64,000 nt of DNA from a virus. Its lineage: Duplodnaviria; Caudoviricetes. A program made the position numbers and the translations under genes. Shown one piece after another: positions 354-15,861 of the stretch. The notes beneath the pieces are model-generated. The model searched no databases. It saw only the letters and a list, made by a program, of their open reading frames with translations, and had not been told where the DNA came from. Each line of letters starts with the position of its first letter. The first letter of the stretch is position 1. The stretch is taken from IMG/VR virus record IMGVR_UViG_3300032327_000792; one strand, written 5' to 3'.

Positions 354-986
354 TTATTTTCCAGCCTTTGCTAGGGCTGCTCCTTTGTTGAAACTGGGCG
401 ACCATGGACTCATTCCATCTACTCCGCCACGTGCTCTTGACCAGTTGTATCCGGCTCTGTGTCCAGAACAATCCTTGGTACATTCACTGCCCAAAAAACT
501 CAACTCGTCCAACTGATCCTTGAGAAAGGTATCAGCAAATGCCTTGCATAACTCTCGAATCTTGGTGTTGCGTGTATATTGTGTGTGAAACTGTTTGCCT
601 TCAAATGTCTGAGCAGGATCTTTATAACCGCAATAAACTTTGTGTATACCGTGCTGTTCAATCAGATCCTGACAACTTTTGCCTTCACGTTCGGCCATGA
701 ACTCGTTGCAAGGACTCAGTGTGGTTATCACAATACTGCCCTCTGGTACGGGTCCAAACCTGGCAGTGTAGTTGTCAATTGCTGCACGTTCGGCATGTGT
801 TCGACGACCGTCTTGCGCAGGACGATTGATACCCACTACACAGTTGTTGTTGGGATCCAACACTGCAGCGCCAACCATGCCCAAGTTTTGATTTCCGTAC
901 TGTCCTTGAATCACCAGTTCACACAGTTTTGTCAAGATTGAATCTAACTTATCATGATTGTGAATTTGGAAGTCGGAGATCCTCAT
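354..986 (-). CDS. Zn-dependent cytidine/adenosine deaminase-family protein with C-terminal CTKDCSGH module
   Basis: HAE (THAERAAI) and PCxx...C (SPCNE...CQDLI) deaminase motifs. Confidence 0.8.
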   Translation of the reverse strand: MRISDFQIHNHDKLDSILTKLCELVIQGQYGNQNLGMVGAAVLDPNNNCVVGINRPAQDGRRTHAERAAIDNYTARFGPVPEGSIVITTLSPCNEFMAEREGKSCQDLIEQHGIHKVYCGYKDPAQTFEGKQFHTQYTRNTKIRELCKAFADTFLKDQLDELSFLGSECTKDCSGHRAGYNWSRARGGVDGMSPWSPSFNKGAALAKAGK

Positions 987-1345
987 TTTTGTTCACGTAC
1001 CTTGGTAGCAACATTCTTTGCCTTGCCCCTACGTTCAGGATTGGGATCTTGTCTACGTTTCTTGGCAGCACTGGCGGCACGACCTTTTTTGCCCAGAGCC
1101 TGTGCTTTTGATTGTGGCAAACATTTGGGTTTGCCTTCTTTGCTGGATCCTCTGGCACAGTCGCCACGAATCTTGCCATCAGGGCCAAAGCGTACCCACT
1201 TTTCTTTGAACCACTTGCGCAGATCTTCTTCTAGTTCCTCGTTGGTATTTTTCACACAGTTAGGATATCGTTTTCCAAACATGGTCTTCATACCCTCTTT
1301 GTGATAACCTTTCCAGCAGGCCTCAAGGATCTCGCGATATCTCAT
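983..1345 (-). CDS. Basic phage protein (CWKGY...PNCV module plus DLRKWFKEKW module; DUF5872-like)
   Basis: ORF with ATGA overlaps on both sides; conserved-looking basic modules; MRYREILE leader. Confidence 0.65.
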   Translation of the reverse strand: MRYREILEACWKGYHKEGMKTMFGKRYPNCVKNTNEELEEDLRKWFKEKWVRFGPDGKIRGDCARGSSKEGKPKCLPQSKAQALGKKGRAASAAKKRRQDPNPERRGKAKNVATKVREQK

Positions 1346-2943
1346 TTTTTTGCTTTGTTGCCCCAGTTGGCAGCACCTTTTTTACGACACTGAACCAAGG
1401 CACCTGATGCATAGGCTGACGGCCAAACTTTGTAGCGACTTTTTACTTTGTGATAGCAGGCATCTTGTTCTTCGCGTAATTTATCATCTAGATCCTGATA
1501 CCCATATCCACGTCCGGGAATTTTTATAGGGCTTGAACTTGCAACACTGGCTTTGTCGTTGTCACCATAGAGATCATCTTCAAGATTTTCAATACGGTTG
1601 CTGACTGTGCGTTGAAAACTTCTCAAATTAGGAACGCCTTTGAATTGAAAGCGATCCAGCTCTTGGTTGCGTTTGCTGATGGTCGCAGTTCTGGTAGTAG
1701 GATTGTATTCAACCACAAAACTCTGCATCACCATTTTGGCTGGAATTTCTTGTGTTTCTTTTACAGGAGCCTTTGTAGAACCATATTGTGATTTCATCAA
1801 CTCTTCACTTAATTCATCTTCAAATGGCAAATACCAGAACCAGTTTTGAAAACCGCCTGGATTGGTATCATAGTCCATGTGAGCACGATTTCTGGCGCCG
1901 GTCATCATGCGTTTGAGTTCTAATTCAGCACCATGCTCGATAGCAATGGCTTCCAAGGCATCATACAGTTGACCAGCAAGATAACTGTCACGATTGCGTT
2001 CAATTTTAGGTGCCAGTTCTTGATATTTTTCAGCCAACTCAGTGTATAGATCTTTGACAGCACCTTCTGCTACTGGTCGATTCAATAATTTTTCCAAACG
2101 ACTGATAGCACCTGGTACGTCTGTGCGACCTTGTTTGGCCGACTCTCGACGGCGAGCTTCAATTTCATTGTGTTTCTTTTCACGCTGTGCTGATGCTTTG
2201 TTCCAACGTTCTCGAGCTGTGTCTTGCTCATACATGCCCAAGCGTTGCAGACGACCTTGGTTGTCTAACGTGTAGCCCACATCAAACAACTGTTTAATTT
2301 TTTTCTGAGCCAATTTTTCATTGCCGGCGCGGCGAGCATCTTCGATTTCACCAGCAATAATTCTGGCATTACGGTCATTTTGATTTTCTTCGTGAAACAA
2401 GTGTGTGTCTGGTGTTATAGAGAGTCGTTCTTTTTGTTGAGTCCACGCTCGATTCTTCTTGGCCCATTCTGTTCGTGTCATACCATAGGCATCTTGAAAC
2501 TGTTTGTCTGTCATGGCATTGCGGCCGCGGCTGCGTAAAAAGTCTTGATATTCAATATCAATGTCCTTCATGCGACCTTCTTTGATTCTGATATCTTCAA
2601 AAGGAACATCGTCCATGTTATCTTTGCTGAACATGTCTAATTGATAGCCCACTGGTCCCTTATGAGTTCCATATGCACGGTTCATGTTCTTCTGTGTTTG
2701 AGCAGCACGACGTTGAACCTGTGTGTAAGGTGTGTGAGGCTTGCTGACTATTTGATAACCACTGCGTTTTAATTCTGAATAAGCACGGTCAAACCCTGTG
2801 CCACTGGTATTCCACTGTGGTAGATAATAACCACGATTGTCTTTTTTCAATCTATAGTGTTGCACTGTTTGCGGATCGGCACCAACCACATAGTGTTTGG
2901 TCAACAACACAAACTGGTCTTCAAATAAATCATTCAGTATCAT
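1342..2943 (-). CDS. Multi-module hypothetical protein (putative head internal protein), C-terminal ACYHKVKSRYKVWPSAYASGALV module
   Basis: 533-aa ORF, MILNDLFE leader, Glu-delimited modules. Confidence 0.65.
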   Translation of the reverse strand: MILNDLFEDQFVLLTKHYVVGADPQTVQHYRLKKDNRGYYLPQWNTSGTGFDRAYSELKRSGYQIVSKPHTPYTQVQRRAAQTQKNMNRAYGTHKGPVGYQLDMFSKDNMDDVPFEDIRIKEGRMKDIDIEYQDFLRSRGRNAMTDKQFQDAYGMTRTEWAKKNRAWTQQKERLSITPDTHLFHEENQNDRNARIIAGEIEDARRAGNEKLAQKKIKQLFDVGYTLDNQGRLQRLGMYEQDTARERWNKASAQREKKHNEIEARRRESAKQGRTDVPGAISRLEKLLNRPVAEGAVKDLYTELAEKYQELAPKIERNRDSYLAGQLYDALEAIAIEHGAELELKRMMTGARNRAHMDYDTNPGGFQNWFWYLPFEDELSEELMKSQYGSTKAPVKETQEIPAKMVMQSFVVEYNPTTRTATISKRNQELDRFQFKGVPNLRSFQRTVSNRIENLEDDLYGDNDKASVASSSPIKIPGRGYGYQDLDDKLREEQDACYHKVKSRYKVWPSAYASGALVQCRKKGAANWGNKAKK

Positions 2944-5852
2944 TCTATGAATCCTTGCATACGTGCTGCTTTTTCTAGTTGCGTCATACGATCTCTAATG
3001 AGTTGTCGATCAGCATAACTATAACCTGGTGTGTCTAATTGTTTTGCCAAATGCTCACGTTTGTCATAGTAATCATTTTTGTCACGTAACTTGTTGTTTC
3101 CGCCACGGTTAAATGTGTCAGCCTCGGGTAAACGTTCGCCTGTTCTAGCACTACGAGCTGTGCTGGATCCGGGTTCGTGTGGCTCTGGTTCTGAACCTGT
3201 CTCAGAATCTGTGCCAAATCCATAATCAAATTTCTTCACAGTCTTGCCTTTGTTGGCATAGTGCTTGCGAACCAGCGCCGGATCAGTTTCATCGCTGGGC
3301 ACACGTAGTCTTGTGGTTGTACCATCTGTAAAATGCACAGTCCAAGTTTCTGGGCCGCTTTCTTTTAGTTCTAATTCTTTCTTAGAGTACATTTGTCTAG
3401 CTAGATCAACTGCCGCGGCATTGTGAAATTTTTCAACATCAATGCCAAACTCATCAGCATACTTTTGAGCAAGTGCATCACGTATTTTAGCAAACTTTGG
3501 AAAACTATATTTTAATGCTTTCATTGGAGCACCATTTGGATCTCTTAAATCTTGTACATATTGATTTAAAACATTTTCTTCATCGGCGTTCAGTTCTTTT
3601 GCTTTTATTTCGTGTACATCTTTCCGGGGTGACCATAGGGCTTTACGCATGCCCAGGTACTGTTGCAATGCGCCTAACTGCCGTTGATACTTGGCCATCA
3701 TGTCATCATAGGCAGTGTCAATGTCGGCTGTGGTAAAATAATCTTCCAAGTCGGCTGCCAATCCACGTGGTAACATACGTCCACCACGTGTGGCACGAGC
3801 TTGTAGTCGTTCTATGTCTTGTTTGATACTGGCCAAGTTATCAATACGTTGTTTTTTGCTTTGTAAATCACTCAGGCGGGTTGGAATGGGTTGTGGTTCT
3901 ACAGAAACAACTTCTGTTGATGCTGTGGGTTGGGTCTGTTGATTTTTCCAACGATGCAACTCTTTTGCAGCCTTGTCCGGTAATGCTTCAGCCACTCGCC
4001 GCATTGGCAGTGCTACATCTCTGTCGTCAATGTCCTCAGGATACTTGTCTTCTTCTTCACTGTTGATAATTCGGTTGATCAATGTGGAGTGATATTTTGG
4101 ATTGCCAGCTTTGTTGGTTCCTGTGCCAATAATTCGACCACCGCGGCTCACAGTGACACGACCTGTGTCGGGACTGTAGTCCACTGTGTAACCTTGAATC
4201 ACACTTTTGACAGGAATATTTTCAAGCAACGACTGATCAGGTGTGGAAAGAGGTTCAACATACGCACCTTTTTGTATGATGTATTCATAGATGAATTGAC
4301 TCAAGAAAGTTGGATCACTGAACAGGTTGAATACTAAATTTCTTTTACTTTCTCCTTCTGGCAAAGTGTTGAGAATACTATACAATTCTTTAATGTGTTT
4401 TTTCTTGATAAACAATGGACGCATACCGCCAATGCCGTCGATCTCTACGGTGTTCAATCCTTTCATATAGGCATCAACAAATCTCAGTAGATTGGCTTTG
4501 GCCAATGTGCTTTTTGGATCAACTGCACGTGGCACGGCATTTTCTTCCAGCCCAGAGGCCATTTGGCCCAATGTATCGTTGGCAGCATTGTCGGCAGCAG
4601 TTGCGGTTGTTTGTCTGGTTTTCTTTGTGTCAGTGCCTGCGGTTGCTTTATTTGTCTGAACCAGACTCAAAGGAACAGGTCGTTGAACTTTTCGAGCTTT
4701 TTCTCCACTGGCCGGTTCAGGTATTTCTGCAGCAGATTGTTCTGCATCAGGAGTTTCTGCAGGAGCCCGACCGGCGGCCTGAGCAATTGCTGACATAGCA
4801 GCACGTCCAGCTTGAGCAGACTGTTTTTCTTTGCGAGTTTGCAACTGCTTCATTACACTGGATGATTTTTCAAGTTTTTTAACTTGTGCTTGTAATTCTT
4901 CAATTGACTTGTTGAGTTCTTTGACCTGCGCTGGATCAACCTTTTCGCCTTGATTCAGAAGAGCGTCCCACATAGATTTTTGACTCTTGAGTGTGTCAAT
5001 TTCTTTCTTGAGGCCAGCCACTTGTGCTCTTGCACCAACATCCAACGGAGTAAAATCTGGAGCACTGGTCTGCGGCGTACTGGGTTCAACATACAATGGA
5101 ATTTTGTCTGTGGCCACACTCACACCCGGTTGTGCCGGCGTTGGTTCTGTACGACGTTGACTCATTGAAGTCAGACGTTGGGCTAACACAGCATTGGCCT
5201 GACGCAACTGTTGAACAGTCTGTTGCAAGCTACGTTCTTCACCTTCTAGGTTGTCAATTTCTGTGTCTTGTTGTTGATTGATTGCAGTGATCTGTTTCAA
5301 CAACTCATCCTGTTGACGGTTGACTCCTTTGAGATCAGAAATATTTTTTTCAGTTTTTTCTTGATTTGCAAACTCGTCTTTGACCAAAGCTTCAATGTCA
5401 CTGTTGGCCGATGGATATTTTGCACGAATTTTTTGTAGTTCTCTTGCTACCTGTGCATCTGAAGCAGTTTTTCCACTGAGTTCTTTGTTTTTCTTCTCAA
5501 ACAATTTCATTTGTGCTATGTGATTCAACATTTTTATTGTTTGATTATAGCTGGTCAATACCCGATACATAAAATTAAATTTGCCCATGTCTGGCAAGCT
5601 GTCGTAGTAGGCAATGATGTCAGGGAAATATTTTGGATCAATGCTGTATGTGCGATCATCTAAAAATGTCAGCTGGGCTGGTTTGCCTTTGGGTTCATAA
5701 TTGATAGCATTGATCAATGCTCCCATGTTGGCATTGCCCAATGCACGATGTTGGCTTCCTGCTTTTTCTGGATTGACCGGCATATAGCTAGATTTTGGTC
5801 TTGGATCTCCTTCGGGAGTGCCGGGAGTTTCAAATAGGTCAAATACAATCAT
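2940..5852 (-). CDS. Large multi-module hypothetical protein with coiled coils (putative head internal polyprotein)
   Basis: 970-aa ORF, MIVFDLFE leader, Gln/Glu-rich coiled-coil segments. Confidence 0.65.
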   Translation of the reverse strand: MIVFDLFETPGTPEGDPRPKSSYMPVNPEKAGSQHRALGNANMGALINAINYEPKGKPAQLTFLDDRTYSIDPKYFPDIIAYYDSLPDMGKFNFMYRVLTSYNQTIKMLNHIAQMKLFEKKNKELSGKTASDAQVARELQKIRAKYPSANSDIEALVKDEFANQEKTEKNISDLKGVNRQQDELLKQITAINQQQDTEIDNLEGEERSLQQTVQQLRQANAVLAQRLTSMSQRRTEPTPAQPGVSVATDKIPLYVEPSTPQTSAPDFTPLDVGARAQVAGLKKEIDTLKSQKSMWDALLNQGEKVDPAQVKELNKSIEELQAQVKKLEKSSSVMKQLQTRKEKQSAQAGRAAMSAIAQAAGRAPAETPDAEQSAAEIPEPASGEKARKVQRPVPLSLVQTNKATAGTDTKKTRQTTATAADNAANDTLGQMASGLEENAVPRAVDPKSTLAKANLLRFVDAYMKGLNTVEIDGIGGMRPLFIKKKHIKELYSILNTLPEGESKRNLVFNLFSDPTFLSQFIYEYIIQKGAYVEPLSTPDQSLLENIPVKSVIQGYTVDYSPDTGRVTVSRGGRIIGTGTNKAGNPKYHSTLINRIINSEEEDKYPEDIDDRDVALPMRRVAEALPDKAAKELHRWKNQQTQPTASTEVVSVEPQPIPTRLSDLQSKKQRIDNLASIKQDIERLQARATRGGRMLPRGLAADLEDYFTTADIDTAYDDMMAKYQRQLGALQQYLGMRKALWSPRKDVHEIKAKELNADEENVLNQYVQDLRDPNGAPMKALKYSFPKFAKIRDALAQKYADEFGIDVEKFHNAAAVDLARQMYSKKELELKESGPETWTVHFTDGTTTRLRVPSDETDPALVRKHYANKGKTVKKFDYGFGTDSETGSEPEPHEPGSSTARSARTGERLPEADTFNRGGNNKLRDKNDYYDKREHLAKQLDTPGYSYADRQLIRDRMTQLEKAARMQGFIE

Positions 5853-5854
5853 AA

Positions 5855-6565
5855 TTACGCTTCTTCAATATAGTCTTGTGACTGGTTGTTCTTTTTTTGT
5901 CTTGCACGGAACATCTCAATGGCCATGGCAGCTTCGTCAATGTTTTTGAATCTGGACTTCATGGTGCGATTGCCGTGACGTATTTCAAATCCTGTGCGTT
6001 CATTGCCGTGTATTTCAAACATAGCGCCATTTTCCAACATCATGGATTTGACACAGGCTGATTCAGCATAGGTAGGATTTTGCATTAGGGGCGTTGGGTC
6101 CTGAATCACCGGATCTTCTTCTGTGGGGTCTTCTGCAATTTCTTTTGCCTTGGCCACAAGATCCCGGTTGTTTTTGTCTTTTTTGCCAATGCCTCGATCC
6201 ACTGGCTTTTGACCTAGGTCACGATCTATTTTCTTTTCCAATGTCTCTTCAACACTTTCTAAATAATCTATCAAACTCTTTTTGACTTTGTCTAGAAGTT
6301 TTTCTTCTTCGACTTGAGCTTCTTCAACAACTTCTTTGTCCGCCTCTTCATCATGTTCAACACTGTCGCCTACCATGTAGCCGCTCATGGGGTTCTTGGC
6401 GTTGGGATTGCCGCCCAGTATCTTCTGTGTTTTTGGTTTGAACAGTGCCGGCAACTGCTTGACACTTTTTTGGTCCGCATTCAATCCGTGCGTGACATCC
6501 ACAGGAGTGATACGTCCTTCCAACTTGGCCAAACGTTCAATGATATCGCGAATGTCATTGCTCAT
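5855..6565 (-). CDS. Hypothetical protein (acidic/basic, putative virion-associated)
   Basis: 236-aa ORF tightly packed in the operon. Confidence 0.6.
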   Translation of the reverse strand: MSNDIRDIIERLAKLEGRITPVDVTHGLNADQKSVKQLPALFKPKTQKILGGNPNAKNPMSGYMVGDSVEHDEEADKEVVEEAQVEEEKLLDKVKKSLIDYLESVEETLEKKIDRDLGQKPVDRGIGKKDKNNRDLVAKAKEIAEDPTEEDPVIQDPTPLMQNPTYAESACVKSMMLENGAMFEIHGNERTGFEIRHGNRTMKSRFKNIDEAAMAIEMFRARQKKNNQSQDYIEEA

Positions 6566-6566
6566 A

Positions 6567-7007
6567 TTATGCTCTTGCGTCCTTTAGATAGCTGCTGAGT
6601 TGCCAATAATATTTGCCGTGTGCAGACTGACGTTCGGCCATGAAGTTGGCGATGTCCTCACGTTTTTCGGACTGTGCAACAGCAAACACTTGCATGACCA
6701 AATCTTTCATGGTCTGTGTGTCTGCCAACAATTCTTCCAACATAAGTCTGGCACGTGGAACTTTGGTCTGTGGTGGTATGATTGATAGTTCTTGAAAACG
6801 CTCAAAACTTCCAGGAGCATATTCTTCCAAGGTACGGATATATTCAGCTATGGCATCTGTTGCACCGTAGGCATCTTGATAGATTTCAGCAAAGAATTCG
6901 TGCAACTGTCCAAAATCTGGCCCTTCCACGTTCCAATGAAACATGTGTGCCTTTAAATAATAAGCAAAATTGCTGGCCAATAACTGTTTTAATAAATCAC
7001 TTAGCAT
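6567..7007 (-). CDS. dps: Dps / ferritin-like DNA starvation protein
   Basis: YYLKAHMFHWNVEGPDFGQLHEFF and DAIAEYIR ferroxidase motifs; the likely start is MLSDLL at 7007. Confidence 0.9.
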   Translation of the reverse strand: MLSDLLKQLLASNFAYYLKAHMFHWNVEGPDFGQLHEFFAEIYQDAYGATDAIAEYIRTLEEYAPGSFERFQELSIIPPQTKVPRARLMLEELLADTQTMKDLVMQVFAVAQSEKREDIANFMAERQSAHGKYYWQLSSYLKDARA

Positions 7008-7200
7008 TCTTTTTTCCCTGTTTCTTTTTGTATTCTTTAGGCGTGTTTGGTGTTGGATCTGAGCCTGTTGAGTATTTACCTGTAAAGAAGTTTCCACCAT
7101 TTCTTGTGATCATGCCGCCCATGGGTGCAGCCACTGTGGCTATGGCACCGGATCCAGTGGATCCCGCCGAAGCATTTTCCATTATTTCACGAATTTTCAT
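6997..7200 (-). CDS. Small hypothetical protein (ENASAGSTGSGAIA motif)
   Basis: 67-aa ORF, MKIREIME leader, basic tail. Confidence 0.65.
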   Translation of the reverse strand: MKIREIMENASAGSTGSGAIATVAAPMGGMITRNGGNFFTGKYSTGSDPTPNTPKEYKKKQGKKNAK

Positions 7201-7483: not shown

Positions 7484-7514
7484 GCTGTATTTAGCGGTTT
7501 TGAATTTTAAGAGT

Positions 7515-8480
7515 TTAAAGACTAAATGGATCTATGATCACAATTTGGCCGTCTTTTCTACGACCCAAGTTTTCAATTGAACGCAAATCCAACGGTGCTA
7601 GTCCGCCAACGGCATCTTCGAGATCCTGTGTGGCCATGACCAATCCGTCTACTTGTTCTTCTGACAATCCCAGCGGTCTTTTTTTGTTTTGGTAGAATGC
7701 TGCCAGGGCTTGTTCACCACGAGGTAGGGCACTCATTAGATCTTCAATGTATTCCAGTACCTGGTCTTCGCCTGACACAGGGCCAAGATATTCCATTTCG
7801 TACACAAAGTAGGTTTCGCCATCCACCTCAAAATCACCAGCGTTGTAAATTCTTGGATAGTGTGGATTGCGTTGATTACGCAGAAAAAAGCCCACATAAG
7901 TTTTTACTATGTCTTCACGTTCGTCTTCGCCAATGCCCACAACTTTGAGCACTGTGCCACGTGGGCTTAGAAATGCTATTTGATCACGGCCTTCACCAAG
8001 ATAACCATAGCCACGATCAACAAAGTAATCTTGTATGCGCTGACTAACTGACAATTCATCTTCGTCGTTGATTTCGTTGATTGGTTGCCAAGTCATTGCT
8101 TTGGCACCTTTGGTGATAGGGTTGAATCCGTGGCGCTGGTATAGTTTGGTCAATGATTTTTGACTTATTTTTCCTTTGGCCCAAGGGTACAATGTTAATG
8201 TAATGCCCGCCGACTGTGCTTGACGTTGCAGTTCTTTGATGGCACGACTGCCTATGCCCTTGCGTTGCTCAGGACCGGCCATTAGCCAATCTATTTCCAC
8301 TGTGTTAGAATCAATGCCGGGTTTGAGTTTGAATGCAGCAAACTGTTGATCTTGACCTGTGCCCCAAACCATGACTCGATCAGCTTGACCATAGGGCCAT
8401 TCTGGGTACTGACTGTAGACCTGATCTATCCAGGCCTGTGCTGTACCTGTGTTTTCAACTAAGAATTCACAAGCTCGCAT
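7515..8480 (-). CDS. GNAT-like acetyltransferase fused to a kinase-like (APH/PKL-type) domain
   Basis: N-half has IDWLMAGPEQRKGIGSRAI (GNAT motif A). C-half has YLGEGRD...VLKV, YEMEYL, DLRSIENLG and IVIIDP, resembling protein-kinase-like subdomains. Confidence 0.6.
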   Translation of the reverse strand: MRACEFLVENTGTAQAWIDQVYSQYPEWPYGQADRVMVWGTGQDQQFAAFKLKPGIDSNTVEIDWLMAGPEQRKGIGSRAIKELQRQAQSAGITLTLYPWAKGKISQKSLTKLYQRHGFNPITKGAKAMTWQPINEINDEDELSVSQRIQDYFVDRGYGYLGEGRDQIAFLSPRGTVLKVVGIGEDEREDIVKTYVGFFLRNQRNPHYPRIYNAGDFEVDGETYFVYEMEYLGPVSGEDQVLEYIEDLMSALPRGEQALAAFYQNKKRPLGLSEEQVDGLVMATQDLEDAVGGLAPLDLRSIENLGRRKDGQIVIIDPFSL

Positions 8481-8708
8481 TTATTCAAAGTCCACTGACT
8501 CTTGTACTAACTGTTTTGTTTTTAATTCTTTTACTGATCCCACATGGTGGTCTTGTATTTGATACTGTTGTTTGAGTATGGTTCTTGCAATTTGTGCGTT
8601 GGGTGCCCAGACCTGTGCGTCAACATAGCCCACATAGTTGGGTTGATTGACACGAACTTTGGCTGTCCAAAGTCGGGCGGATTCTGTTACGAACTCACGT
8701 AATCTCAT
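8481..8708 (-). CDS. Small hypothetical protein
   Basis: 75-aa ORF, MRLREFVTE leader. Confidence 0.65.
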   Translation of the reverse strand: MRLREFVTESARLWTAKVRVNQPNYVGYVDAQVWAPNAQIARTILKQQYQIQDHHVGSVKELKTKQLVQESVDFE

Positions 8709-8714
8709 AATATA

Positions 8715-9533
8715 TTACTTATTCTTCTTTTTTCCAGACTTCATATTGGCACACCAATGATACATCTTGGCTTTTTCTCCCGATGCATTTTTAGCCTTGC
8801 GACGTAGATCAGTTACTGATCCTGCACAACTGGCACCTGCACGTTTCACACGTCCTGGACGGCTTTTGCCTTTAACTTTACCGTCAGCAAAGTTTTCGTT
8901 GGTGGTCTTGCCCTGTATTAGATTTCTCACTCGATCAATCACATGATTCACACTGCTCAAGGTGGCATGTGAAAAACCCTTCATCACTGTTCGATCCTGT
9001 TGAACCATCGCATACTGATATATCTTGGAGCTGGTACCGCGTTGTATGCTGAAAATCTTGTTGTCTCTGTTGAAGAAGTGTGCAGAGTTGGCACCCAATT
9101 CCTGATCCCAACCTTGACTGTCAAAAAACACACGATATATGTTGAGTATGTCATTCCAACTTAGATTGTAGTCGTTGCCTCCCCACGGGTCATGTTCAGG
9201 TGGCACAAATTCATTGAGAGTTTCTTGATCTTCCCAAACTCTTTGATCACCACGGTGTTTGTCCCAAAATCCCCGGCCTGCATCGGTTTGATCCCAACTT
9301 CTAACAATGGTATAGCCATTGTCTTTTAGGTAATCGTACATATTGGCCGCAATGCCCTGACCGTGATAACGTTCATCAACCCATACAGTTTGTGGATCCA
9401 ATCGACCCTCTTGGTCAAAGAAAAATTCTGCATGGCCTAAATTTTTACCACCGGCAGTAGCTTTGACAGCTACACCGTCTGCATTCCGACTGATCAACAG
9501 TTTGTATTCTAATAGGAATTCTCGAGCTCTCAT
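8715..9533 (-). CDS. GNAT-like acetyltransferase plus extra modules, C-terminal basic ENFADGK...HWCANMKSG module
   Basis: VWVDERYHGQGIAANMY (GNAT motif A) and QTDAGRGFW. Confidence 0.7.
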   Translation of the reverse strand: MRAREFLLEYKLLISRNADGVAVKATAGGKNLGHAEFFFDQEGRLDPQTVWVDERYHGQGIAANMYDYLKDNGYTIVRSWDQTDAGRGFWDKHRGDQRVWEDQETLNEFVPPEHDPWGGNDYNLSWNDILNIYRVFFDSQGWDQELGANSAHFFNRDNKIFSIQRGTSSKIYQYAMVQQDRTVMKGFSHATLSSVNHVIDRVRNLIQGKTTNENFADGKVKGKSRPGRVKRAGASCAGSVTDLRRKAKNASGEKAKMYHWCANMKSGKKKNK

Positions 9534-10618
9534 CGGGCACTCGCTACAAAACGTAAGTCTCTACTGATAGATCCCAACTCTTTTTTCATTTTGGGGCCAG
9601 CACGTTTGACGTCTGCACGTGACACATGAGTGTCGGGTTCGTCCTGGGTTGTTACATTAACAGGCTCATCGGTGCGTGTGTCAAAGCCGTGTATGTTCAA
9701 CTTACGACCATAACGCTGTTCTAGTTCTTGCCACACACGATAGCCACCTTCACTTTGCTTGTTGTCGCTGATCAGTGTGAGTCCCTGGTCCAGTATCAAA
9801 AAAGCATACAAATCTGCAGCACGGTATTGATTTCGAGGACCTGAATAAACACCCTGAATGACAAAGCTGTTGGGGTTTGATCGATAAGGACGACCTGTGG
9901 TGCCCAATTGACTGGTGCGTGTGTTGGTGTTAAACACATAGTATGTGACTGTGCCACGATTGTTCCATGACCATAGTTCGAACCCGTCACCAAGATCAGC
10001 AACTAAATTGCCTAAGTATTCAGACTCTTTGCCTGAGGGAATAGGTTTGCCATCATTGGGCATGAGATCCAAATGTTCTCTTTTGCTTTTGGATTGTGTG
10101 TTGACCATGGTCACTTCCATTATACCAGTGGCTCTACGCAATCTCAAATCATAGTCTCGATCGCTTTCGTATTTGGTAATAAAATCGTCGTAATAGCGTT
10201 TGGCGTCAGCAGGAGTGTCAGCTTCAAAACTGTGAACTATTTTATCAGGTGTTTCGGCATGATAGATTTCATAGCTTCGGTTGAGTCTGTCACGTACACG
10301 AGCCATGCGTTCTTGTCTAGCGTCAACCTGACGGCCAGCACGATCAAGATAGCGTTCCAACTTATCTCTACTGATTTCATTTACTTTATCGTTCATTGGG
10401 CGTTTAATGCGTACCAATCTGTTGGTACTGGGTTCTATGGTATAGCCCAGCATGATCAACTGTTTCATAATTTGTCTGGCCTGATCCATATTGGGCACAT
10501 GACCGTCACTGTTGTCCAGAGCATCCATCATGAGATTGTACAAAATCATAGCTTTTTGCGATGTGCCAGACTCAAATTCGTTAGCACGAATCTCAGTTAC
10601 GAACTCTTGAGCTCTCAT
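9530..10618 (-). CDS. Multi-module protein with C-terminal GNAT-like domain
   Basis: Likely start is MRAQEFVTE at 10618 (ATGA overlap with the upstream stop); C-terminal LISDNKQSEGGYRVWQEL is typical of phage GNAT-like domains. Confidence 0.6.
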   Translation of the reverse strand: MRAQEFVTEIRANEFESGTSQKAMILYNLMMDALDNSDGHVPNMDQARQIMKQLIMLGYTIEPSTNRLVRIKRPMNDKVNEISRDKLERYLDRAGRQVDARQERMARVRDRLNRSYEIYHAETPDKIVHSFEADTPADAKRYYDDFITKYESDRDYDLRLRRATGIMEVTMVNTQSKSKREHLDLMPNDGKPIPSGKESEYLGNLVADLGDGFELWSWNNRGTVTYYVFNTNTRTSQLGTTGRPYRSNPNSFVIQGVYSGPRNQYRAADLYAFLILDQGLTLISDNKQSEGGYRVWQELEQRYGRKLNIHGFDTRTDEPVNVTTQDEPDTHVSRADVKRAGPKMKKELGSISRDLRFVASAR

Positions 10619-13600
10619 TTTTTCTTCCGGTCCAACATGTTGTAAGGATGTCTTTTGTCGTTCATGTATTCCACAGCTAACAGCATCACAGAATTCTTGG
10701 CTGACTGTGGCACACTGGCCCAACTGCTGTAGCCATTCTTTTGGGCAGCCATGTTCATGAATTTTCTGGCTCGTTCAGCATCACTTTCTGTGCTTTCGCC
10801 TAATTCGGGTCTTGGATCTACGCTACGCAAATATATGTCTGCCGCAGGATTCTGTTGCTCCAGGTTAGTCTGCACTACATTGGCTTGGTTATAACTGGCA
10901 TTGGTCATTGAATGAATAACCCGTCCGGTTATGCGATCCACAAATTCCCAATTGCGGCGAACTTCTGTGGCATCTTGAGGTCGGTCAAAGTTTTGTGCTA
11001 TATCTGGCTCAATATCATTCACTGCTTGCGCTACTCGCCAGCCATAGTTTTCTGTGTCTGCAGGCATGCCTTGATTGCGTAGCCAATTGCTAAACTTGTC
11101 ACCAGCATCCGCCGCATCATCTGCTCGGTACCGTAGTATCACACGATTGTTTCTGCGATCCACAATTTCGTACTGATCTGTGGCCTGAACACGTTGTTGT
11201 AGGCGTTGGCTGTCTACAGCGTTGTCCACTGCTTGTTTAACACCGGTGGCTCGTTGCACTGTGAAGTTGCCTGTGTCCAAATTCTTGTCCTGCAAGTATG
11301 TGATCGCAAAGTCCACAGCCTGAGCCTGACTGGATGCCTGGAATGTGTAGAATGGTAGGCCACTGTGTTTGTTCAATACCACATAGTCTTTGGGTTGAGC
11401 AATTTGTTTGGCCAATTTGGCTCTGCGACTGAGTTTGGGTTCGGGTTCAGTTTTTCCTCCGCCGTAGGGCTCAATGTAGAATGGTATGACATCAGTGTAC
11501 TTTTCACGAGCCTGATCAGCGGCTTCGCCACGTGTGGCAGCATCAATGATTTCCAATGTTTCGTTGTTGTCTTTGCGCATAACACGCCATTGACCTGTGT
11601 TGGTACCCACATCACGCAGTTCGTAGGCCTGCTTGAAATCCATCATGGAACTGGCCGGACTCACACGAGCTTTGGCACGTTCCAGTGCGTCCAGTTCTGT
11701 GTAGTTTGAAAACTCTAGGCCTTCAACTGGTTTGTTGGTGGATCTGTTGTAGAGCCTCCACGAACTCTTGCCTCCTGTGCCATCAGGAACTTCCTTGTTG
11801 ATTACTTTTTCGGCCCATTGTTTTTTGAGTTGTTCAGCAGTGAGTTCACCAGCACTGAACTTGCTGAACAGTTCCAGGTCCCGGTTGCCTTCAGGAGCAA
11901 TTAGCTTGTATAGTTTTTTGTAGTATTCAGGACGCTCTAAGTCAGGACGACCAGCTAGATACATGGCATAGGCAAAGCGACGCATGGTTGATGCCAACAC
12001 GTCTGCTTCACCCTGATCGCCTATGCTTAGGTAATCGCCGCCAGGTGATCTAAATTCAATATAGCCAGGCTTGATATGTGCTGATGTATATTTGGAACCA
12101 CCCACGCCTTGCTGTACATATTTCTGTGCTAACTCAAGCAAATTGCTCTTCATCAACTCTACAGCAGAGGCAATCTTAGGACTGCCACTGGCCACGTTTT
12201 GTTTGATCTTTTTCATGGCCGAAGCAGTGTAGGTATTGGCAGCACGTCCAAACTTGTCCAGCACATACTCGTCACCCATGAACAAGATCAATTTCAAGTA
12301 GTCAACATCACCACCTTTGAATGGTATTGATATGCCCATGTGCAAACCTGTTGAATCGTTGGTGTAAGCATAACCGTCGGAATTGGCCCATGCAATCACT
12401 TTTTCCATCTGTTCAATGGCCTGATTCAATGGCAGTGGTGGACTCACAAGTTCCAATCCAGCATCATCTCGATTATCTGGGCTCAAACTTGAGTCTGGCT
12501 CCAGCACATATTCGTTAGGCACACGACGGGCGGAGTGATAACCTGATCCCACAACCACACGTTTGCCCAGTACTGTTTCAAGTTCGGCAGCAATTTGAGA
12601 CCAGTCACGAGATCCTTCGTTTCTGCTGCTGGTGTTGGTGTAGTAAGGCCAATCCAAATTGTACTCGTTCATGACATCGCTCATCCAGCGTAGACCTATG
12701 TCTGAAAAGAAGCCAGAATCATCCGCATCGTAGCCATTGCGGAATTCATCCAGTGCAGCGTCCCAGTTTGCACCTTGTTTGCGAACTTCATCTTCAACTA
12801 GAGCATCCAATAGATCTTCTGCTGCGCTCTGGGCATCCATGTATTTTTGATACAGGGGATTTTCTTTGGCGTATTCTTGTTGATCGCTGTATTTGGTAAA
12901 GCGAGGAGCCCGTTCGCCAGCTTGAATAATCTCATTCATTTCATCATCAGTTAAATCCAACAACTCCAACTGTTTTTGTATTTCAGTGTCTTTGTCCCAA
13001 TCGCCTTCGTCAACAAGCACCTTACGAATCAAGTCTTCGGCCTCTTGTTCAAAGTCACGCATGATTTGTTCATCACGCCACTCAAAGTAGGCTTCATCCA
13101 GTCTGTCTCTCAATCGATCGGCTTGACGTTCACTCATGCCATATCCACTGTAGTCGTTGGAGAAAAATTCAACAACTTGTTCAATACTGTAGGCACGTTC
13201 GTCCATGTCCATGTCGGCTTCCATGTCATCATCGCTGTCGTCATCTTCACTGCTGGTGTCACGGAATATCAATTCTGCTTCAAAGCCGGCCAAAATACCT
13301 TCGGCTTCGGGTGAATCAGCAAACTTACGCAGAGCTGAAGGACTCATCTTGACTTCGTCTAGCTGTACACTTTCAAACAAGTCAGGATCAAAATCATCAG
13401 CTGAAATAAAGTGAGTGGTGCCATCTCTGTGCTGCAGTTGAACAGCATCATCTTCGGATTCTACTTGACGTATGCTCCAGCCCAGGCTGTTTAACACAGA
13501 TTCAATTTGCGGTTGACGGTCTGTGGCATTCCACCAACGATTGGCCAGCACAAAAATAGGATCTGGAACATCATCGTTGCGGTCACGCCCAGGGCCGGGT

Positions 13601-15861
13601 GCAAATTCATTCACATTGTATGTGGGGTCAGTTTTGATCTTTGGACCGGGACGTTTTACAGGATCCACAGGATCAATGTCAGTGACATCCAGCCCTGTGG
13701 CTTTTATGTCACCAATGAACTTGTGTTCTGTATCTTCGTCACCAAAGCTGATGATGGTACTAGGAGGACCCTGTCCAAAATCGTGTTGCCCTAGACCTTT
13801 CATGTTTGGAATATGTTGACCCAGTTTGTACCAGTCGTACACATCTGAAACATCCACACGTAGCGTGCCAGCTGGCATTGTGGGTTTGAATTCTGGACCA
13901 GGCGGTCGTTGGTTGCCTAGAGCATCTAGTTTAGAGCTCACACGGCCAGTTTCTTTGAACTCGCGTAGGGCATTCTTAAGACCTTTGATCAGTAACTCAG
14001 GATGTCCTTGACTGTCTGTGTTCAAACTCAACTTGTTGGCTTCTTTGCCCACTGCTCCGGGCTGAACATCCACACTCAACGCATTGCTGAACTGTGGTAG
14101 CTTTGCTTGTTTACGTGTGGGAATATAACCCGAAGATTCTTTTACATCATCTTTGTTTTGCATCTGTTTCTGTAGCTGATACAAACGACTTTGATTCTTT
14201 GCGTTAGCTGATCCAGGACCTTGACCCTGTGCTCTTAAAAAATTCTGTAGTTCTTGATCCAGTTCGGCCTTGACACCGGCCCGGTTCATGTTTTTCACTG
14301 TTTGTGCTGTGCGTGCCGCTGTTTGTGCATCTCGAACAGTGCCAGCAGTTGTAGTAGCACAGCCAGGAGTACCTGCTATGCATGCGGCTGCTGCTATTGC
14401 ACCTAACTTTTCTTTTACACCCTCTTGTGTGGGCTTTCGGCGAGGTTTGAAAGGTACCAGCATGTTGGCCGGCAATCTCACAGTTTCACCTGTGTCAGCG
14501 TCTGTGATGGTGACCATGTGACCAACCTGTTGAATCACAGTTCCGCCCTTGGGCAACATTTTGAGACCATAGTTATCAATTACACCGTCGCCGCGTTGGA
14601 ACATCTTGCTTGAGCCCAAACTGTAAGTGGCTTCCATGGTGTGCTCAGTATCAAACAATTCAGGGTGCAGTTGTCCGTATTCACGCATCAGCACACCAGC
14701 TTGAGCATTGGCTTCGTTTTCGTATTCACTGCCTGTGACACCTGCATCGTCAGGTATGTCAGCAACTTCACCTTGACGCTGATGTGTGAGCTCGTGTGCT
14801 ACTGTGCGCAATATGTCCATGACATGGCGATTGGCCAAGCTCACAATCAATTCATTGGTGTCATGATTGTAGCTGCCAAATGTTCGGTTGCGTTTGCTCC
14901 ACACAGGATCACGTTTGAAACGTATCCGGGGCGTGTTTTCAATACCTAATTTTTCAACACAAAAGTTCACAAAGTCTGTGACAGTGTCTTCTGTGGTGGG
15001 TGCAGATTCCTGTATGCTTTCTCCACCACCACCATCGCCTCCTCCACCGTCGGCAGGAGCTTCACCGGAACCGGCAAATCCAAATCCGGGATACCAATAT
15101 CCACCAAAGCCGTATTTTACTTTTTTCTTTTTGGCTTTCTTTTTGCGGCGTTCATTCAAACTCAACTCTGCATCTTTGGCTGCTGCTCTGGCACTGTATA
15201 ATTTTTTAATTGCGCCTTGATTGCGCAACATCTTGAAGGCCAGGTTTTCAGCACCCAGTTCACCGTGTGCATCAAGTCCAGCTTGACGCATGTTTCGGAT
15301 TTTGTTTGCCAACTCTGCAATGGCGTCGCCATCCTGAGAAGCCACAGCAGATTCAATTCTGTGTCCAATGTCTTCATACTTTGACTTCACTGCTTCGTCG
15401 TTGACAGTGGCACGTTGCTTGAGTGGAATTTTTACCCAGTCATTGTTCAGCACACTGTATATGCCCTGGCTCACAGGTTGCTTGCGGGCATCTTCTACAT
15501 AGAGCTCTACATCATAGCCGCCAATGGTGATGTTGTGTTGATCATTGTACTGATACTTTTTGGCATCAAACAGTTCGCGATATACATCATCGGCATCTGC
15601 CTGAGGAATATCTACCACTAGATGTAGATCAATGTCTGAATAGGGTGTGTAAGTGTATCCGGCATTGCTACCTGACACAGTAATGTCTTTTACTTCTATG
15701 TCACTGAGTCCTAGAAATTCTTTAAAATCCTCGGCAATTGCCAACAGGCGCTCACGCACCTCGGGTTTCATTTTTTGCCCGGACCAAACCACTGGATTTA
15801 AAGTGTTGTTGAATTTAACAGCATCTGCTAAATTATAGGAATCTAATTCTGTGATGTTCAT
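10615..15861 (-). CDS. 1748-aa polyvalent protein: pol-beta-type nucleotidyltransferase + HExxH metallopeptidase + amidoligase (COOH-NH2 ligase type 2) + repeats
   Basis: SGSNAGY...SDIDLH...VELYVE; RTVAHELTHQRQ; EPDSSL...GLELVSPP...TNDSTGLHMGI...YIEFRSPG. Confidence 0.75.
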   Translation of the reverse strand: MNITELDSYNLADAVKFNNTLNPVVWSGQKMKPEVRERLLAIAEDFKEFLGLSDIEVKDITVSGSNAGYTYTPYSDIDLHLVVDIPQADADDVYRELFDAKKYQYNDQHNITIGGYDVELYVEDARKQPVSQGIYSVLNNDWVKIPLKQRATVNDEAVKSKYEDIGHRIESAVASQDGDAIAELANKIRNMRQAGLDAHGELGAENLAFKMLRNQGAIKKLYSARAAAKDAELSLNERRKKKAKKKKVKYGFGGYWYPGFGFAGSGEAPADGGGGDGGGGESIQESAPTTEDTVTDFVNFCVEKLGIENTPRIRFKRDPVWSKRNRTFGSYNHDTNELIVSLANRHVMDILRTVAHELTHQRQGEVADIPDDAGVTGSEYENEANAQAGVLMREYGQLHPELFDTEHTMEATYSLGSSKMFQRGDGVIDNYGLKMLPKGGTVIQQVGHMVTITDADTGETVRLPANMLVPFKPRRKPTQEGVKEKLGAIAAAACIAGTPGCATTTAGTVRDAQTAARTAQTVKNMNRAGVKAELDQELQNFLRAQGQGPGSANAKNQSRLYQLQKQMQNKDDVKESSGYIPTRKQAKLPQFSNALSVDVQPGAVGKEANKLSLNTDSQGHPELLIKGLKNALREFKETGRVSSKLDALGNQRPPGPEFKPTMPAGTLRVDVSDVYDWYKLGQHIPNMKGLGQHDFGQGPPSTIISFGDEDTEHKFIGDIKATGLDVTDIDPVDPVKRPGPKIKTDPTYNVNEFAPGPGRDRNDDVPDPIFVLANRWWNATDRQPQIESVLNSLGWSIRQVESEDDAVQLQHRDGTTHFISADDFDPDLFESVQLDEVKMSPSALRKFADSPEAEGILAGFEAELIFRDTSSEDDDSDDDMEADMDMDERAYSIEQVVEFFSNDYSGYGMSERQADRLRDRLDEAYFEWRDEQIMRDFEQEAEDLIRKVLVDEGDWDKDTEIQKQLELLDLTDDEMNEIIQAGERAPRFTKYSDQQEYAKENPLYQKYMDAQSAAEDLLDALVEDEVRKQGANWDAALDEFRNGYDADDSGFFSDIGLRWMSDVMNEYNLDWPYYTNTSSRNEGSRDWSQIAAELETVLGKRVVVGSGYHSARRVPNEYVLEPDSSLSPDNRDDAGLELVSPPLPLNQAIEQMEKVIAWANSDGYAYTNDSTGLHMGISIPFKGGDVDYLKLILFMGDEYVLDKFGRAANTYTASAMKKIKQNVASGSPKIASAVELMKSNLLELAQKYVQQGVGGSKYTSAHIKPGYIEFRSPGGDYLSIGDQGEADVLASTMRRFAYAMYLAGRPDLERPEYYKKLYKLIAPEGNRDLELFSKFSAGELTAEQLKKQWAEKVINKEVPDGTGGKSSWRLYNRSTNKPVEGLEFSNYTELDALERAKARVSPASSMMDFKQAYELRDVGTNTGQWRVMRKDNNETLEIIDAATRGEAADQAREKYTDVIPFYIEPYGGGKTEPEPKLSRRAKLAKQIAQPKDYVVLNKHSGLPFYTFQASSQAQAVDFAITYLQDKNLDTGNFTVQRATGVKQAVDNAVDSQRLQQRVQATDQYEIVDRRNNRVILRYRADDAADAGDKFSNWLRNQGMPADTENYGWRVAQAVNDIEPDIAQNFDRPQDATEVRRNWEFVDRITGRVIHSMTNASYNQANVVQTNLEQQNPAADIYLRSVDPRPELGESTESDAERARKFMNMAAQKNGYSSWASVPQSAKNSVMLLAVEYMNDKRHPYNMLDRKKK

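What the first reader, a model, noticed from the sequence alone, without database searches (positions are those of the whole stretch)
983..15861. Glu-delimited domain junctions suggest protease-processed polyproteins
Inside the large ORFs, recognisable modules begin right after hydrophobic-x-E sites that mimic the leader: LEE-DLRKW, LRE-EQDACY, VAE-GAVK, IKE-GRMK, LLE-NIPVK, VAE-ALPD, VHE-IKAK, LKE-SGPE, INE-INDE, LNE-FVPP, TNE-NFADG, VNE-ISRD, IQE-SAPT, VKE-SSGYIP, VNE-FAPG, LDE-VKMSP. Several ORFs also end in such a site (YIEEA, VREQK, VQESVDFE). Inference: the prohead protease cuts the polyproteins into many small effectors, and genes fuse or split freely at these junctions.
Basis: partly seen in the sequence, partly recalled or inferred. 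Interest (0 to 1): 0.78.

Follow-up and report, generated by a model that had tools for sequence, protein, structure and literature searches.

The report
Protease-site junctions in phage cargo polyproteins
A giant T4-related phage builds its probable head-packaged proteins from interchangeable modules, and nearly every joint carries the short signal at which T4-type head proteases cut, so one gene probably yields several injected proteins; no cutting has been measured.

Summary
The motif hydrophobic-x-Glu is common (91 sites in 4,847 residues), so the list alone proves little. Independent tests do support it.

- Breakpoints of homology to 73 related metagenomic phage loci lie within 4 residues of such a site three times more often than in shuffles. 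Asp, Lys, Gln or Arg in place of Glu show no enrichment.
- The same module recurs behind many unrelated upstream sequences. It is nearly always preceded by aliphatic-x-Glu, or sits directly behind a 9-residue leader, M-R-A-x-E-F-[ILV]-x-E. This leader resembles the T4 capsid-targeting sequence.
- Internal junctions keep only the two positions that T4 uses for processing.
- AlphaFold linkers end exactly at two of the sites.
- Five related near-complete genomes all encode a T4 gp21-type protease, and their scaffold proteins are enriched in the motif.
- Homologues of three modules are in the published virion proteome of cyanophage S-CREM2.

Gene fusion and splitting at these junctions is shown. 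Cleavage is inferred, not shown. I found no published description. This scan has noted the same pattern in at least 22 other genomes.

The parts
10615..15861 (-). 1748-aa multi-module ('polyvalent') protein. Short leader MNITE; NTase domain 6-237; linker; HExxH zincin-like domain 286-404; shuffled small modules 576-637, 638-752 and 753-836; amidoligase-containing region from 837; repeated small domains at the C-terminus.
   Evidence: Pfam NTP_transf_2 and Amidoligase_2. AF2 domains 11-244, 287-404, 782-823 and 837-1200. Foldseek gives weak ANT/CD-NTase and minigluzincin matches. Modules are rearranged among 59 related loci.
15847..15855 (-). ITE5 site, which closes the short leader of the 1748-aa protein.
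   Evidence: h-x-E is kept in 22 of 23 aligned homologues.
15151..15159 (-).
   Evidence: Kept in 23 of 23 homologues. Standalone NTase genes of 234-237 aa end here.
15007..15015 (-). IQE285 | SAPT junction before the zincin-like module.
   Evidence: The AF2 low-confidence linker 245-286 ends here. A standalone 126-aa homologue has the leader MKSTEFLIE in register. h-x-E is kept in 17 of 23 homologues.
14137..14145 (-). VKE575 | SSGYIP junction.
   Evidence: Ten upstream contexts; nine have h-x-E within 1 residue.
13606..13614 (-). VNE752 | FAPG junction.
   Evidence: Relatives have standalone genes starting MRLRE|FAPSP, and internal copies behind IME, IAE, VNE and LVE.
13354..13362 (-). LDE836 | VKMSP junction before the amidoligase region.
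   Evidence: Kept in 23 of 23 homologues. The AF2 low-confidence segment 824-836 ends here.
9530..10618 (-). 362-aa three-module protein with leader MRAQEFVTE. Junctions VNE81 (nt 10376-10384) and IME168.
   Evidence: Nine contexts for the ISRD module, two of them leaders. Alignment edges cluster at 78 and 169.
8715..9533 (-). 272-aa protein: leader MRAREFLLE, GNAT module, orphan middle module, and the NFADG basic module. Sites VWE101, LNE108 (nt 9210-9218) and TNE213 (nt 8895-8903).
   Evidence: Pfam GNAT. The NFADG module occurs in 26 contexts, 25 with h-x-E, several of them 64-66-aa standalone genes.
8481..8708 (-). 75-aa leader-bearing protein (MRLREFVTE) that ends VQE|SVDFE.
   Evidence: The C-terminal extension is shared only with L002.
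7515..8480 (-). 321-aa protein: leader MRACEFLVE, GNAT module, then INE136 (nt 8073-8081), then a module with a weak PHROG match to a family annotated as protein kinase / inhibitor of host transcription.
   Evidence: Pfam and PHROG hits. The downstream module stands alone behind leaders in five relatives.
5855..6565 (-). 236-aa protein without a leader, ending DYIEE|A.
   Evidence: The C-terminal DY-h-x-E plus one residue is conserved in about 30 homologues. Two homologues are fused there to the DACY module.
2940..5852 (-). 970-aa protein with leader MIVFDLFE. Sites LFE119, LEE437, LLE544 (nt 4221-4229), VAE622 (3987-3995), VHE748 (3609-3617), LKE831 (3360-3368) and LPE910.
   Evidence: Insertions and deletions relative to four homologues begin or end at these sites. 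Relatives read VHE|MRASELNE|SGPETW, with a leader-like string inside the protein.
1342..2943 (-). 533-aa five-module protein with leader MILNDLFE. Sites IKE122 (nt 2578-2586), VAE293 (2065-2073), LSE380 and LRE491 (1471-1479).
   Evidence: Eleven contexts for the GAVK module and 15 for the DACY module. AF2 low or dip segments at 91-125, about 271-292, 386-408 and 460-482.
983..1345 (-). 120-aa two-module basic Cys protein: leader MRYREILE, CWKGY module, LEE40 (nt 1226-1234), DLRKW module, then VRE118|QK.
   Evidence: Both modules occur, in a different order, in virion protein ORF160 of cyanophage S-CREM2 (PMC10665884).

Best explanation
The block 983-15861 (minus strand) is an array of capsid-cargo genes of a jumbo phage of the T4 superfamily.

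Most products start with a short leader, consensus M-R-A-x-E-F-[ILV]-x-E, with variants MI-x-x-DLFE and MNITE. This leader is the counterpart of the 10-residue T4 capsid-targeting sequence. It would direct the protein into the prohead core.

The proteins are strings of independent modules: enzymes such as an NTase, GNATs, a possible kinase-like module, an amidoligase and a zincin, plus many small basic Cys-containing modules. Each joint carries aliphatic-x-Glu, the recognition motif of the gp21-type prohead serine protease.

Inferred mechanism: one leader loads the whole chain. When the protease is activated in the prohead it removes the leader and cuts the exposed joints. The modules are freed as separate proteins that stay in the head and enter the host with the DNA. 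Sites buried in folded domains are not cut.

Because every module carries its own cut site, genes can fuse, split and swap modules without losing loading or release. This explains the extreme mosaicism among relatives.

Shown: the motif, its association with module boundaries, the shuffling, and the protease gene in relatives. Inferred: packaging of these particular proteins, and cleavage.
For: 1. Junction statistics: 18 of 43 independently defined breakpoints lie within 4 residues of [ILVFM]-x-E, against 6.0 +/- 2.1 in shuffles. This is specific to Glu at P1.

2. Leader: 187 distinct proteins in 73 loci carry M-R-A-x-E-F-[ILV]-x-E. The DNA pattern gives 18 forward-strand hits in five related genomes (plus 1 on the reverse strand) and none with the reversed control pattern.

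3. Register with leaders: 137 distinct internal contexts were aligned to the leaders of homologous standalone modules. Glu is exactly in register with leader residue 9 in 76%. P3 is I/L/V/F/M in 77%. Leader positions 1-6 are not retained. In 85% an h-x-E lies within 2 residues. T4 mutagenesis places processing at CTS residues 8 and 10 and targeting further N-terminal (PMC9026906).

4. Single modules behind many contexts: the NFADG module has 26 contexts, 25 with h-x-E. The DACY module has 15 of 15. The FAPSP module follows the leader MRLRE or VNE/IME/IAE/LVE.

5. Conservation: junction sites 5, 237, 285, 752 and 836 keep h-x-E in about 90% of aligned homologues, interior sites in about 31%.

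6. AlphaFold: low-confidence linkers 245-286 and 824-836 end at IQE285 and LDE836. In the 533-aa protein IKE122, VAE293 and LRE491 sit at low-pLDDT segments or transitions.

7. Insertions and deletions in the 970-aa family start or end at h-x-E, and relatives carry a leader-like string MRASELNE inside the protein.

8. Protease: Peptidase_S77 (T4 gp21 family) is above the curated cut-off in 5 of 5 related 317-355 kb records, inside a portal-core-protease-scaffold-capsid module. The scaffold has 26-28 h-x-E sites against 14-15 expected (0 of 500 shuffles reach it). The capsid protein has 4 of its 5-6 sites in the first 44 residues.

9. h-x-E is relatively depleted in leader-bearing proteins (observed/expected 1.08 and 0.99) compared with other phage proteins (1.22). 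h-x-D is not depleted.

10. Experimental, from the literature: the S-CREM2 virion proteome contains ORF156, a homologue of the window's NTase module; ORF154, a cytidylyltransferase with a CTS-like start; and ORF160, built of the same small modules, each behind h-x-E (PMC10665884).

11. gp21 cuts after L/I-x-E, and the T4 CTS is MKTYQEFIAE.
Against: - There is no proteomic or biochemical evidence for this phage or for any internal junction.
- The window's own genome is not held, so its protease gene was not seen.
- T4 internal proteins are cut only once (PMC8442874), so multiple internal cuts that leave useful products are an extrapolation.
- About 60% of the h-x-E sites in residues 1-1200 of the 1748-aa protein lie in confident helices or strands, so the motif alone does not predict cutting.
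- Several real domain boundaries have no site: the end of the zincin domain (LFD403) and the C-terminal repeats.
- One junction in the window has Thr at P3.
- In relatives a subset of junctions (GVAE) is fixed at silent codon positions. Part of the junction conservation could therefore serve DNA recombination rather than proteolysis.
- The depletion statistic counts related sequences as if they were independent.
Confidence: 0.7

Rival explanations
1. The proteins are loaded through the leader, and only the leader is removed. The internal h-x-E motifs are shuffling scars or recombination linkers: each was once the end of a leader, or part of a conserved DNA linker. The multi-module proteins act intact, as proposed for other polyvalent proteins.
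For: - T4 internal proteins are cut only once.
- Phage N4 virion RNA polymerase is packaged unprocessed (PMC5512222).
- A leader-like string inside a homologue (VHE|MRASELNE|SGPETW) shows that junctions can arise from gene fusion.
- In relatives, 68 GVAE junctions use GGT GTG GCG GAA. GCG is used in 71% of them against 7% background, which is a DNA-level signal.
Against: - A neutral scar would decay. Instead only P3 and P1 persist, while leader positions 1-6 are lost.
- Junction sites are far better conserved than interior sites.
- The window's 16 sites share no DNA motif, yet all keep the P1 Glu and 15 of 16 keep the aliphatic P3.
- Internal leader-like strings are rare.
- The motif is relatively depleted elsewhere in these proteins.
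Confidence: 0.17
2. Processing is carried out by another protease rather than the prohead protease. Candidates are the HExxH zincin-like domain embedded in the 1748-aa protein, as in the published self-processing model for polyvalent proteins, or the phage-encoded ClpP.
For: - The HExxH residues H356, E357 and H360 are invariant in 24 sequences.
- The domain folds with confidence and weakly resembles minigluzincin zymogens.
- The polyvalent-protein paper proposes zincin-mediated processing.
- ClpP and a ClpA/B-like ATPase are encoded in the window.
Against: - The other multi-module proteins (533, 970, 362, 321, 272 and 120 aa) have the same junction motif but no zincin.
- The same motif ends the leader and fills the scaffold and capsid-protein N-terminus of relatives, which are classic prohead-protease substrates.
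- The Pfam polyvalent MPTase family was not matched; the only hit was a weak DUF6782 at E=0.04.
- From general knowledge, Clp proteases do not recognise a defined P3/P1 motif.
Confidence: 0.06
3. The match between motif and boundaries is chance, or reflects the Glu-rich composition of linkers.
For: The motif is frequent (about 1.9 per 100 residues).
Against: - Shuffle tests give p<0.001.
- Controls with Asp, Lys, Gln or Arg at P1, and non-hydrophobic-x-E, are not enriched.
- 85% of 137 contexts have the motif within 2 residues, against roughly 10% expected.
Confidence: 0.01

Closest known systems
T4 internal proteins IPI, IPII, IPIII and Alt, with their capsid-targeting sequence, processed by prohead protease gp21
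   Same: - A short N-terminal leader that ends in aliphatic-x-Glu.
- A gp21-family protease in the lineage.
- Cargo that includes enzymes and small basic proteins.
- A variable gene set.
- Cutting after Glu with a P3 aliphatic residue (PMC9026906, PMC8442874).
   Different: - The leader is 9 residues, not 10, and has a different consensus.
- P3 accepts Val and Met as often as Leu and Ile.
- The cargo is multi-module, with the motif repeated at internal joints. T4 internal proteins are single modules cut once.
- Modules are exchanged between genes at the motif.
Polyvalent proteins of phages and conjugative elements (Iyer et al. 2017, PMC5512222)
   Same: - Long proteins that string unrelated effector domains together (NTase, GNAT, zincin, amidoligase-type).
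- Predicted delivery with the DNA.
- Extensive domain mosaicism.
   Different: That work proposes processing by embedded zincin metallopeptidases and does not describe a junction motif or an N-terminal capsid-targeting leader. Here the joints match the prohead protease site, and most of the multi-module proteins have no zincin.
Head and inner-body or ejection proteins of phiKZ, 201phi2-1 and SPN3US, cut by gp175/gp245
   Same: - A diverged gp21-type protease cuts many head proteins after x-x-Glu.
- Some substrates are cut at several sites.
- The cargo is ejected into the host (PMC10052503).
   Different: - P3 is small there (Ala, Ser or Gly), not aliphatic.
- Those cuts remove long N-terminal propeptides, which are then degraded.
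- Strings of retained, shuffled modules are not described.
Multi-module virion proteins of T4-like cyanophages (S-CREM2 ORF160, S-RIM8 gp114)
   Same: - Homologous small basic Cys modules (DWFK/DLRKW, CW-x-GY, DACYHKV), each behind h-x-E.
- A fusion/split example: S-RS29 has its own gene starting MKTFNQFQAE|CWK, while S-RIM8 has the module internally behind QQFQE|KCWKGY.
- ORF160 was detected in virions.
   Different: They are annotated only as hypothetical or virion proteins. I found no published statement on the junction motif or on processing. The leaders are the 10-residue T4 type.

Membership tests
T4-type capsid-targeted, gp21-processed head cargo | N-terminal leader of about 10 residues ending in aliphatic-x-Glu. 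| tested here: met
   Eight ORFs in 983-15861 start with a leader: MRACEFLVE, MRLREFVTE, MRAREFLLE, MRAQEFVTE, MRYREILE, MILNDLFE, MIVFDLFE and MNITE. The consensus comes from 187 proteins.
T4-type capsid-targeted, gp21-processed head cargo | The phage encodes a gp21-family (Peptidase_S77) prohead protease. | tested here: inconclusive
   Present above the curated cut-off in 5 of 5 related near-complete records. The window's own genome is not held, and the window itself has no such gene.
T4-type capsid-targeted, gp21-processed head cargo | The protein is physically present in the capsid. | not testable with these tools
   Indirect only: homologues of the NTase module and of the small basic modules, and a cytidylyltransferase-like protein (weak similarity), are in the S-CREM2 virion proteome (PMC10665884).
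T4-type capsid-targeted, gp21-processed head cargo | Cleavage after Glu demonstrated by N-terminal sequencing or mass spectrometry. | not testable with these tools
   No data exist for this phage or its uncultured relatives.
Polyvalent proteins (Iyer et al. 2017) | Two or more unrelated effector domains in one phage polypeptide. | tested here: met
   NTase, zincin-like and amidoligase regions in the 1748-aa protein. GNAT plus a second, unrelated module in the 321-aa protein.
Polyvalent proteins (Iyer et al. 2017) | Zincin-like MPTase domain proposed to process the chain. | tested here: inconclusive
   An invariant HExxH domain is present, with weak minigluzincin-like fold matches. No significant Pfam metallopeptidase match was found. 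The domain is absent from the other multi-module proteins.
phiKZ-like inner-body or ejection proteins | Cleavage motif with a small residue (Ser/Ala/Gly) at P3. | tested here: not met
   P3 is I/L/V/F/M in 77% of 137 junction contexts.

The most novel reading that the evidence does not exclude
Across the T4 superfamily, from jumbo phages to marine cyanophages, the prohead protease may act as a true polyprotein protease. A single capsid-targeting leader would load a chain of unrelated modules. Universal aliphatic-x-Glu joints would release the modules inside the head. In some lineages a fixed DNA linker (GGT GTG GCG GAA) would serve as the recombination point, so the phage head would work as a plug-and-play loader for a combinatorially shuffled injected arsenal.
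Probability: 0.5. Interest if true: 0.85.

Novelty: new variant of a known kind. Interest (0 to 1): 0.72.

Why it matters
If the joints are cut, one short motif explains three things at once:
- how large phages load many unrelated proteins with a single address tag;
- how those proteins are released as separate injected factors;
- why these loci evolve by free module exchange.

It would turn dozens of 'hypothetical' giant proteins in metagenomic jumbo phages and cyanophages into predictable sets of mature products. It would also give a rule for finding injected effectors by sequence: a leader plus junction motifs. It would extend the T4 capsid-targeting toolbox to multi-protein payloads.

The idea is directly testable on cultured cyanophages whose virion proteomes already exist.

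Tried and rejected
- Megablast of the region against 50,697 phage records found no match.
- The window's genome is not held, so the protease could not be sought in it.
- PA5oct, the closest cultured relative by clamp loader (57% identity), has no match to the MR-x-x-EF-x-x-E leader DNA pattern used. Its virion proteome could therefore not be used.
- Relatives of the module after LNE108 were not found in IMG/VR. tblastn of the 272-aa protein against phages found no match.
- Internal leader-like strings were sought in all ORFs and are rare: 4 hits, mostly mis-called starts. Junctions are therefore not simply undecayed leaders.
- Foldseek against the PDB with the 1200-residue model gave only weak rows (best E=3e-3). 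I use them for annotation only.
- The fixed DNA linker found in relatives is absent from the window (0 matches at up to 3 mismatches).
- Overall motif enrichment in the cargo proteins was rejected. Observed/expected is about 1, lower than in other phage proteins.
- Sites are not concentrated in low-pLDDT regions overall: about 38% of sites against 34% of residues. Only the converse holds, that module boundaries carry sites.

Full report
**What the region is.** All genes in 983-15861 lie on the minus strand and are tightly packed, several with 4-nt overlaps. The window has no close relative among deposited phages. Its clamp loader is 57% identical to that of the Pseudomonas jumbo phage PA5oct group and 42-45% identical to Atu_ph07, Phosso and RsoM2USA. 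It is therefore a jumbo phage of the T4 superfamily.

Eight ORFs in the region begin with a stereotyped leader: MRACEFLVE, MRLREFVTE, MRAREFLLE, MRAQEFVTE, MRYREILE, MILNDLFE, MIVFDLFE and MNITE. Recognisable domains are:
- a Pol-beta-type nucleotidyltransferase, an HExxH domain and an amidoligase in the 1748-aa protein;
- two GNAT modules;
- a module with a weak PHROG match (E=1e-4) to a family annotated as protein kinase / inhibitor of host transcription;
- a Dps/ferritin protein;
- several small basic Cys-containing modules with weak DUF5872 or PHROG matches.

**Check of the observation.** All 19 strings are present. The motif [ILVFM]-x-E is common, with 91 sites in 4,847 residues, so the list by itself is a selection.

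I defined module boundaries without reference to the motif. I fetched 73 related loci from IMG/VR, extracted their ORFs, and took clusters of BLAST alignment edges on the window proteins. Of 43 clusters, 18 lie within 4 residues of a site, against 6.0 +/- 2.1 in 1000 composition-preserving shuffles. The same test with Asp, Lys, Gln, Arg, Ala or Ser/Thr at P1, or with a non-hydrophobic P3, shows no enrichment. E-x-h is mildly enriched because the residue after the Glu is often Phe or Ile.

**Shuffling at the junctions.** The 1748-aa protein is a mosaic. Its modules 1-237, 286-403, 576-637, 650-752, 753-836 and 837 onward occur in relatives in other orders, in other proteins, or as separate genes.

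- The NFADG module has 26 contexts, 25 with h-x-E. Several of these are 64-66-aa genes in which the leader (for example MRAHEFVTE) abuts the module.
- The DACY module has 15 of 15 contexts with the motif.
- The FAPSP module follows VNE, IME, IAE or LVE internally, and MRLRE when it stands alone.

Seen from the upstream side, the DLRKW module ends KNVATKV-x-E and is followed by many different modules in relatives. This explains the window's ORF end VRE|QK.

For VHE748 and LKE831 the evidence comes from a five-sequence alignment. Relatives read VHE|MRASELNE|SGPETW, a leader-like string inside the protein, and the window carries a roughly 75-residue insertion there that ends in its own LKE. Other insertions and deletions start at LEE437 and LPE910 and end at LLE544.

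**Only the processing positions are kept.** The leader consensus from 187 distinct proteins is M-R-A-x-E-F-[ILV]-x-E. I aligned 137 distinct internal contexts, ungapped, to the leaders of homologous standalone modules.
- The residue opposite leader position 9 is Glu in 76%.
- The residue opposite position 7 is I/L/V/F/M in 77%.
- Positions 1-6 are not retained.
- With a shift of up to 2 residues allowed, 85% have the motif, against roughly 10% expected.

In T4, mutagenesis places capsid targeting in the N-terminal part of the 10-residue sequence MKTYQEFIAE and processing at residues 8 and 10, and gp21 cuts after L/I-x-E (PMC9026906; PMC8442874). The internal joints thus keep exactly what a protease needs and nothing that targeting needs. 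This argues against neutral scars.

In co-linear homologues, junction sites keep the motif in about 90% of sequences and interior sites in about 31%.

**Structure.** AlphaFold2 on residues 1-1200 of the 1748-aa protein (24-sequence alignment, mean pLDDT 64) gives confident domains at 11-244, 287-404, 782-823 and 837-1200. The low-confidence linkers 245-286 and 824-836 end exactly at IQE285 and LDE836.

For the 533-aa protein:
- IKE122 closes the low segment 91-125;
- VAE293 sits in a dip before helix 293-313;
- LRE491 is at the transition into the confident C-terminal module.

Many other h-x-E sites lie in confident helices and are presumably protected. The motif is necessary, not sufficient.

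**The protease.** The window's genome is not held. All five related records of 317-355 kb encode a Peptidase_S77 (gp21) homologue above Pfam's cut-off, within a portal-core-protease-scaffold-capsid module. In the two records examined:
- the scaffold proteins carry 26-28 h-x-E sites against 14-15 expected, and none of 500 shuffles reaches that;
- h-x-D is not enriched;
- the capsid proteins have four of their 5-6 sites in the first 44 residues, the expected propeptide.

This fits a T4-like specificity broadened to Val and Met.

Leader-bearing proteins show a relative deficit of the motif. Observed/expected is 1.08 for leader-bearing proteins and 0.99 for the large polyvalent ones, against 1.22 in other phage proteins. 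h-x-D shows no such deficit. Related sequences are not independent, so this point is suggestive only.

**Experimental anchor.** The same modules occur in T4-like cyanophages, in multi-module genes next to the small terminase gene.

There is a clean split/fusion pair. S-RS29 has a separate gene starting MKTFNQFQAE|CWK. S-RIM8 has the same module internally behind QQFQE|KCWKGY.

The published virion proteome of S-CREM2 lists:
- ORF156, the homologue of the window's NTase module (36% identity; starts MKKLISE);
- ORF154, a cytidylyltransferase that starts MKNFSSFLTE;
- ORF155;
- ORF160, a chain of DWFK, CW-x-GY and DACYHKV modules, each behind h-x-E (PMC10665884).

Packaging of homologous modules is therefore measured. 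Their cleavage is not.

**Rivals.**
- Chance is excluded.
- Self-processing by the embedded zincin is the published model for polyvalent proteins (PMC5512222). It cannot explain the same motif in proteins without a zincin, or in leaders and scaffolds.
- The serious rival is that only the leader is cut and the chains act intact. In relatives, 68 GVAE junctions use GGT GTG GCG GAA, with GCG in 71% against 7% background. A DNA-level recombination linker therefore exists in some lineages. The window lacks it, yet its 16 sites all keep the P1 Glu and 15 keep an aliphatic P3, with varied codons. Protein-level selection is needed as well.

**Novelty.** My literature searches found the T4 capsid-targeting and gp21 rules, multiple cuts in propeptides of phiKZ-like phages (PMC10052503), and the polyvalent-protein concept. 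They found no description of cargo polyproteins whose shuffled modules are delimited by prohead-protease sites. The scan's own notes report the same pattern in at least 22 other genomes. One of those notes led me to the fixed-codon linker, which I confirmed in the relatives here.

**Verdict.** Cleavage remains an inference, at about 0.7.

Noticed in passing
L012-L073 (relatives), e.g. L042:18645-20789, L024:15519-18419; absent from the window: In relatives, 68 distinct G-V-A-E junctions, often Q-G-V-A-E-G, use nearly fixed codons GGT GTG GCG GAA. GCG is used in 71% against 7% background, and GGT in 88% against 36%. This points to a DNA-level linker, possibly the recombination point for module exchange. 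The window has no copy.
   Followed up: partly
window 5855-6565 (-): This 236-aa protein has no leader. Its C-terminus, DY-[ILVM]-[DE]-E followed by exactly one residue and the stop codon, is conserved in about 30 homologues. Two homologues continue there into the DACY module. It may be a C-terminal processing or docking signal.
   Followed up: partly
window 16877-17677 (-): A cytidylyltransferase-like gene just outside the finding ends in LEE|KWSKKYKSSINCSNPKGF. The same small Cys module is found behind leaders in relatives. A cytidylyltransferase with a CTS-like start is a virion protein in S-CREM2.
   Followed up: partly
window 354-986 (-): A cytidine/dCMP deaminase-like protein (Pfam E=2e-12) starts MRISDFQ, with Asp where the leader has Glu, and carries a small C-terminal Cys module. 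It is a possible packaged deaminase, and the Asp might block leader removal, as it does in T4.
   Followed up: no
window 10618-12129 (-), residues 1244-1688 of the 1748-aa protein: There is no [ILVFM]-x-E in 445 consecutive residues, where about 8 are expected. The stretch holds five repeated small domains of about 60 residues.
   Followed up: no
window 60890-61483, 19358-21634, 21702-22487 (-): The phage encodes ClpP (Pfam E=3e-79), a ClpA/B-type double-AAA ATPase, and a DnaJ.
   Followed up: no
L083:754-3177: A homologue of the 970-aa protein carries a leader-like string inside the chain (VHE|MRASELNE|SGPETW). This is a trace of an old fusion of two leader-bearing genes.
   Followed up: yes
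window 6567-7100 (-): A Dps/ferritin-like gene (Pfam E=2e-22) sits inside the cargo array. It has a variable 31-residue N-terminus and no standard leader.
   Followed up: no
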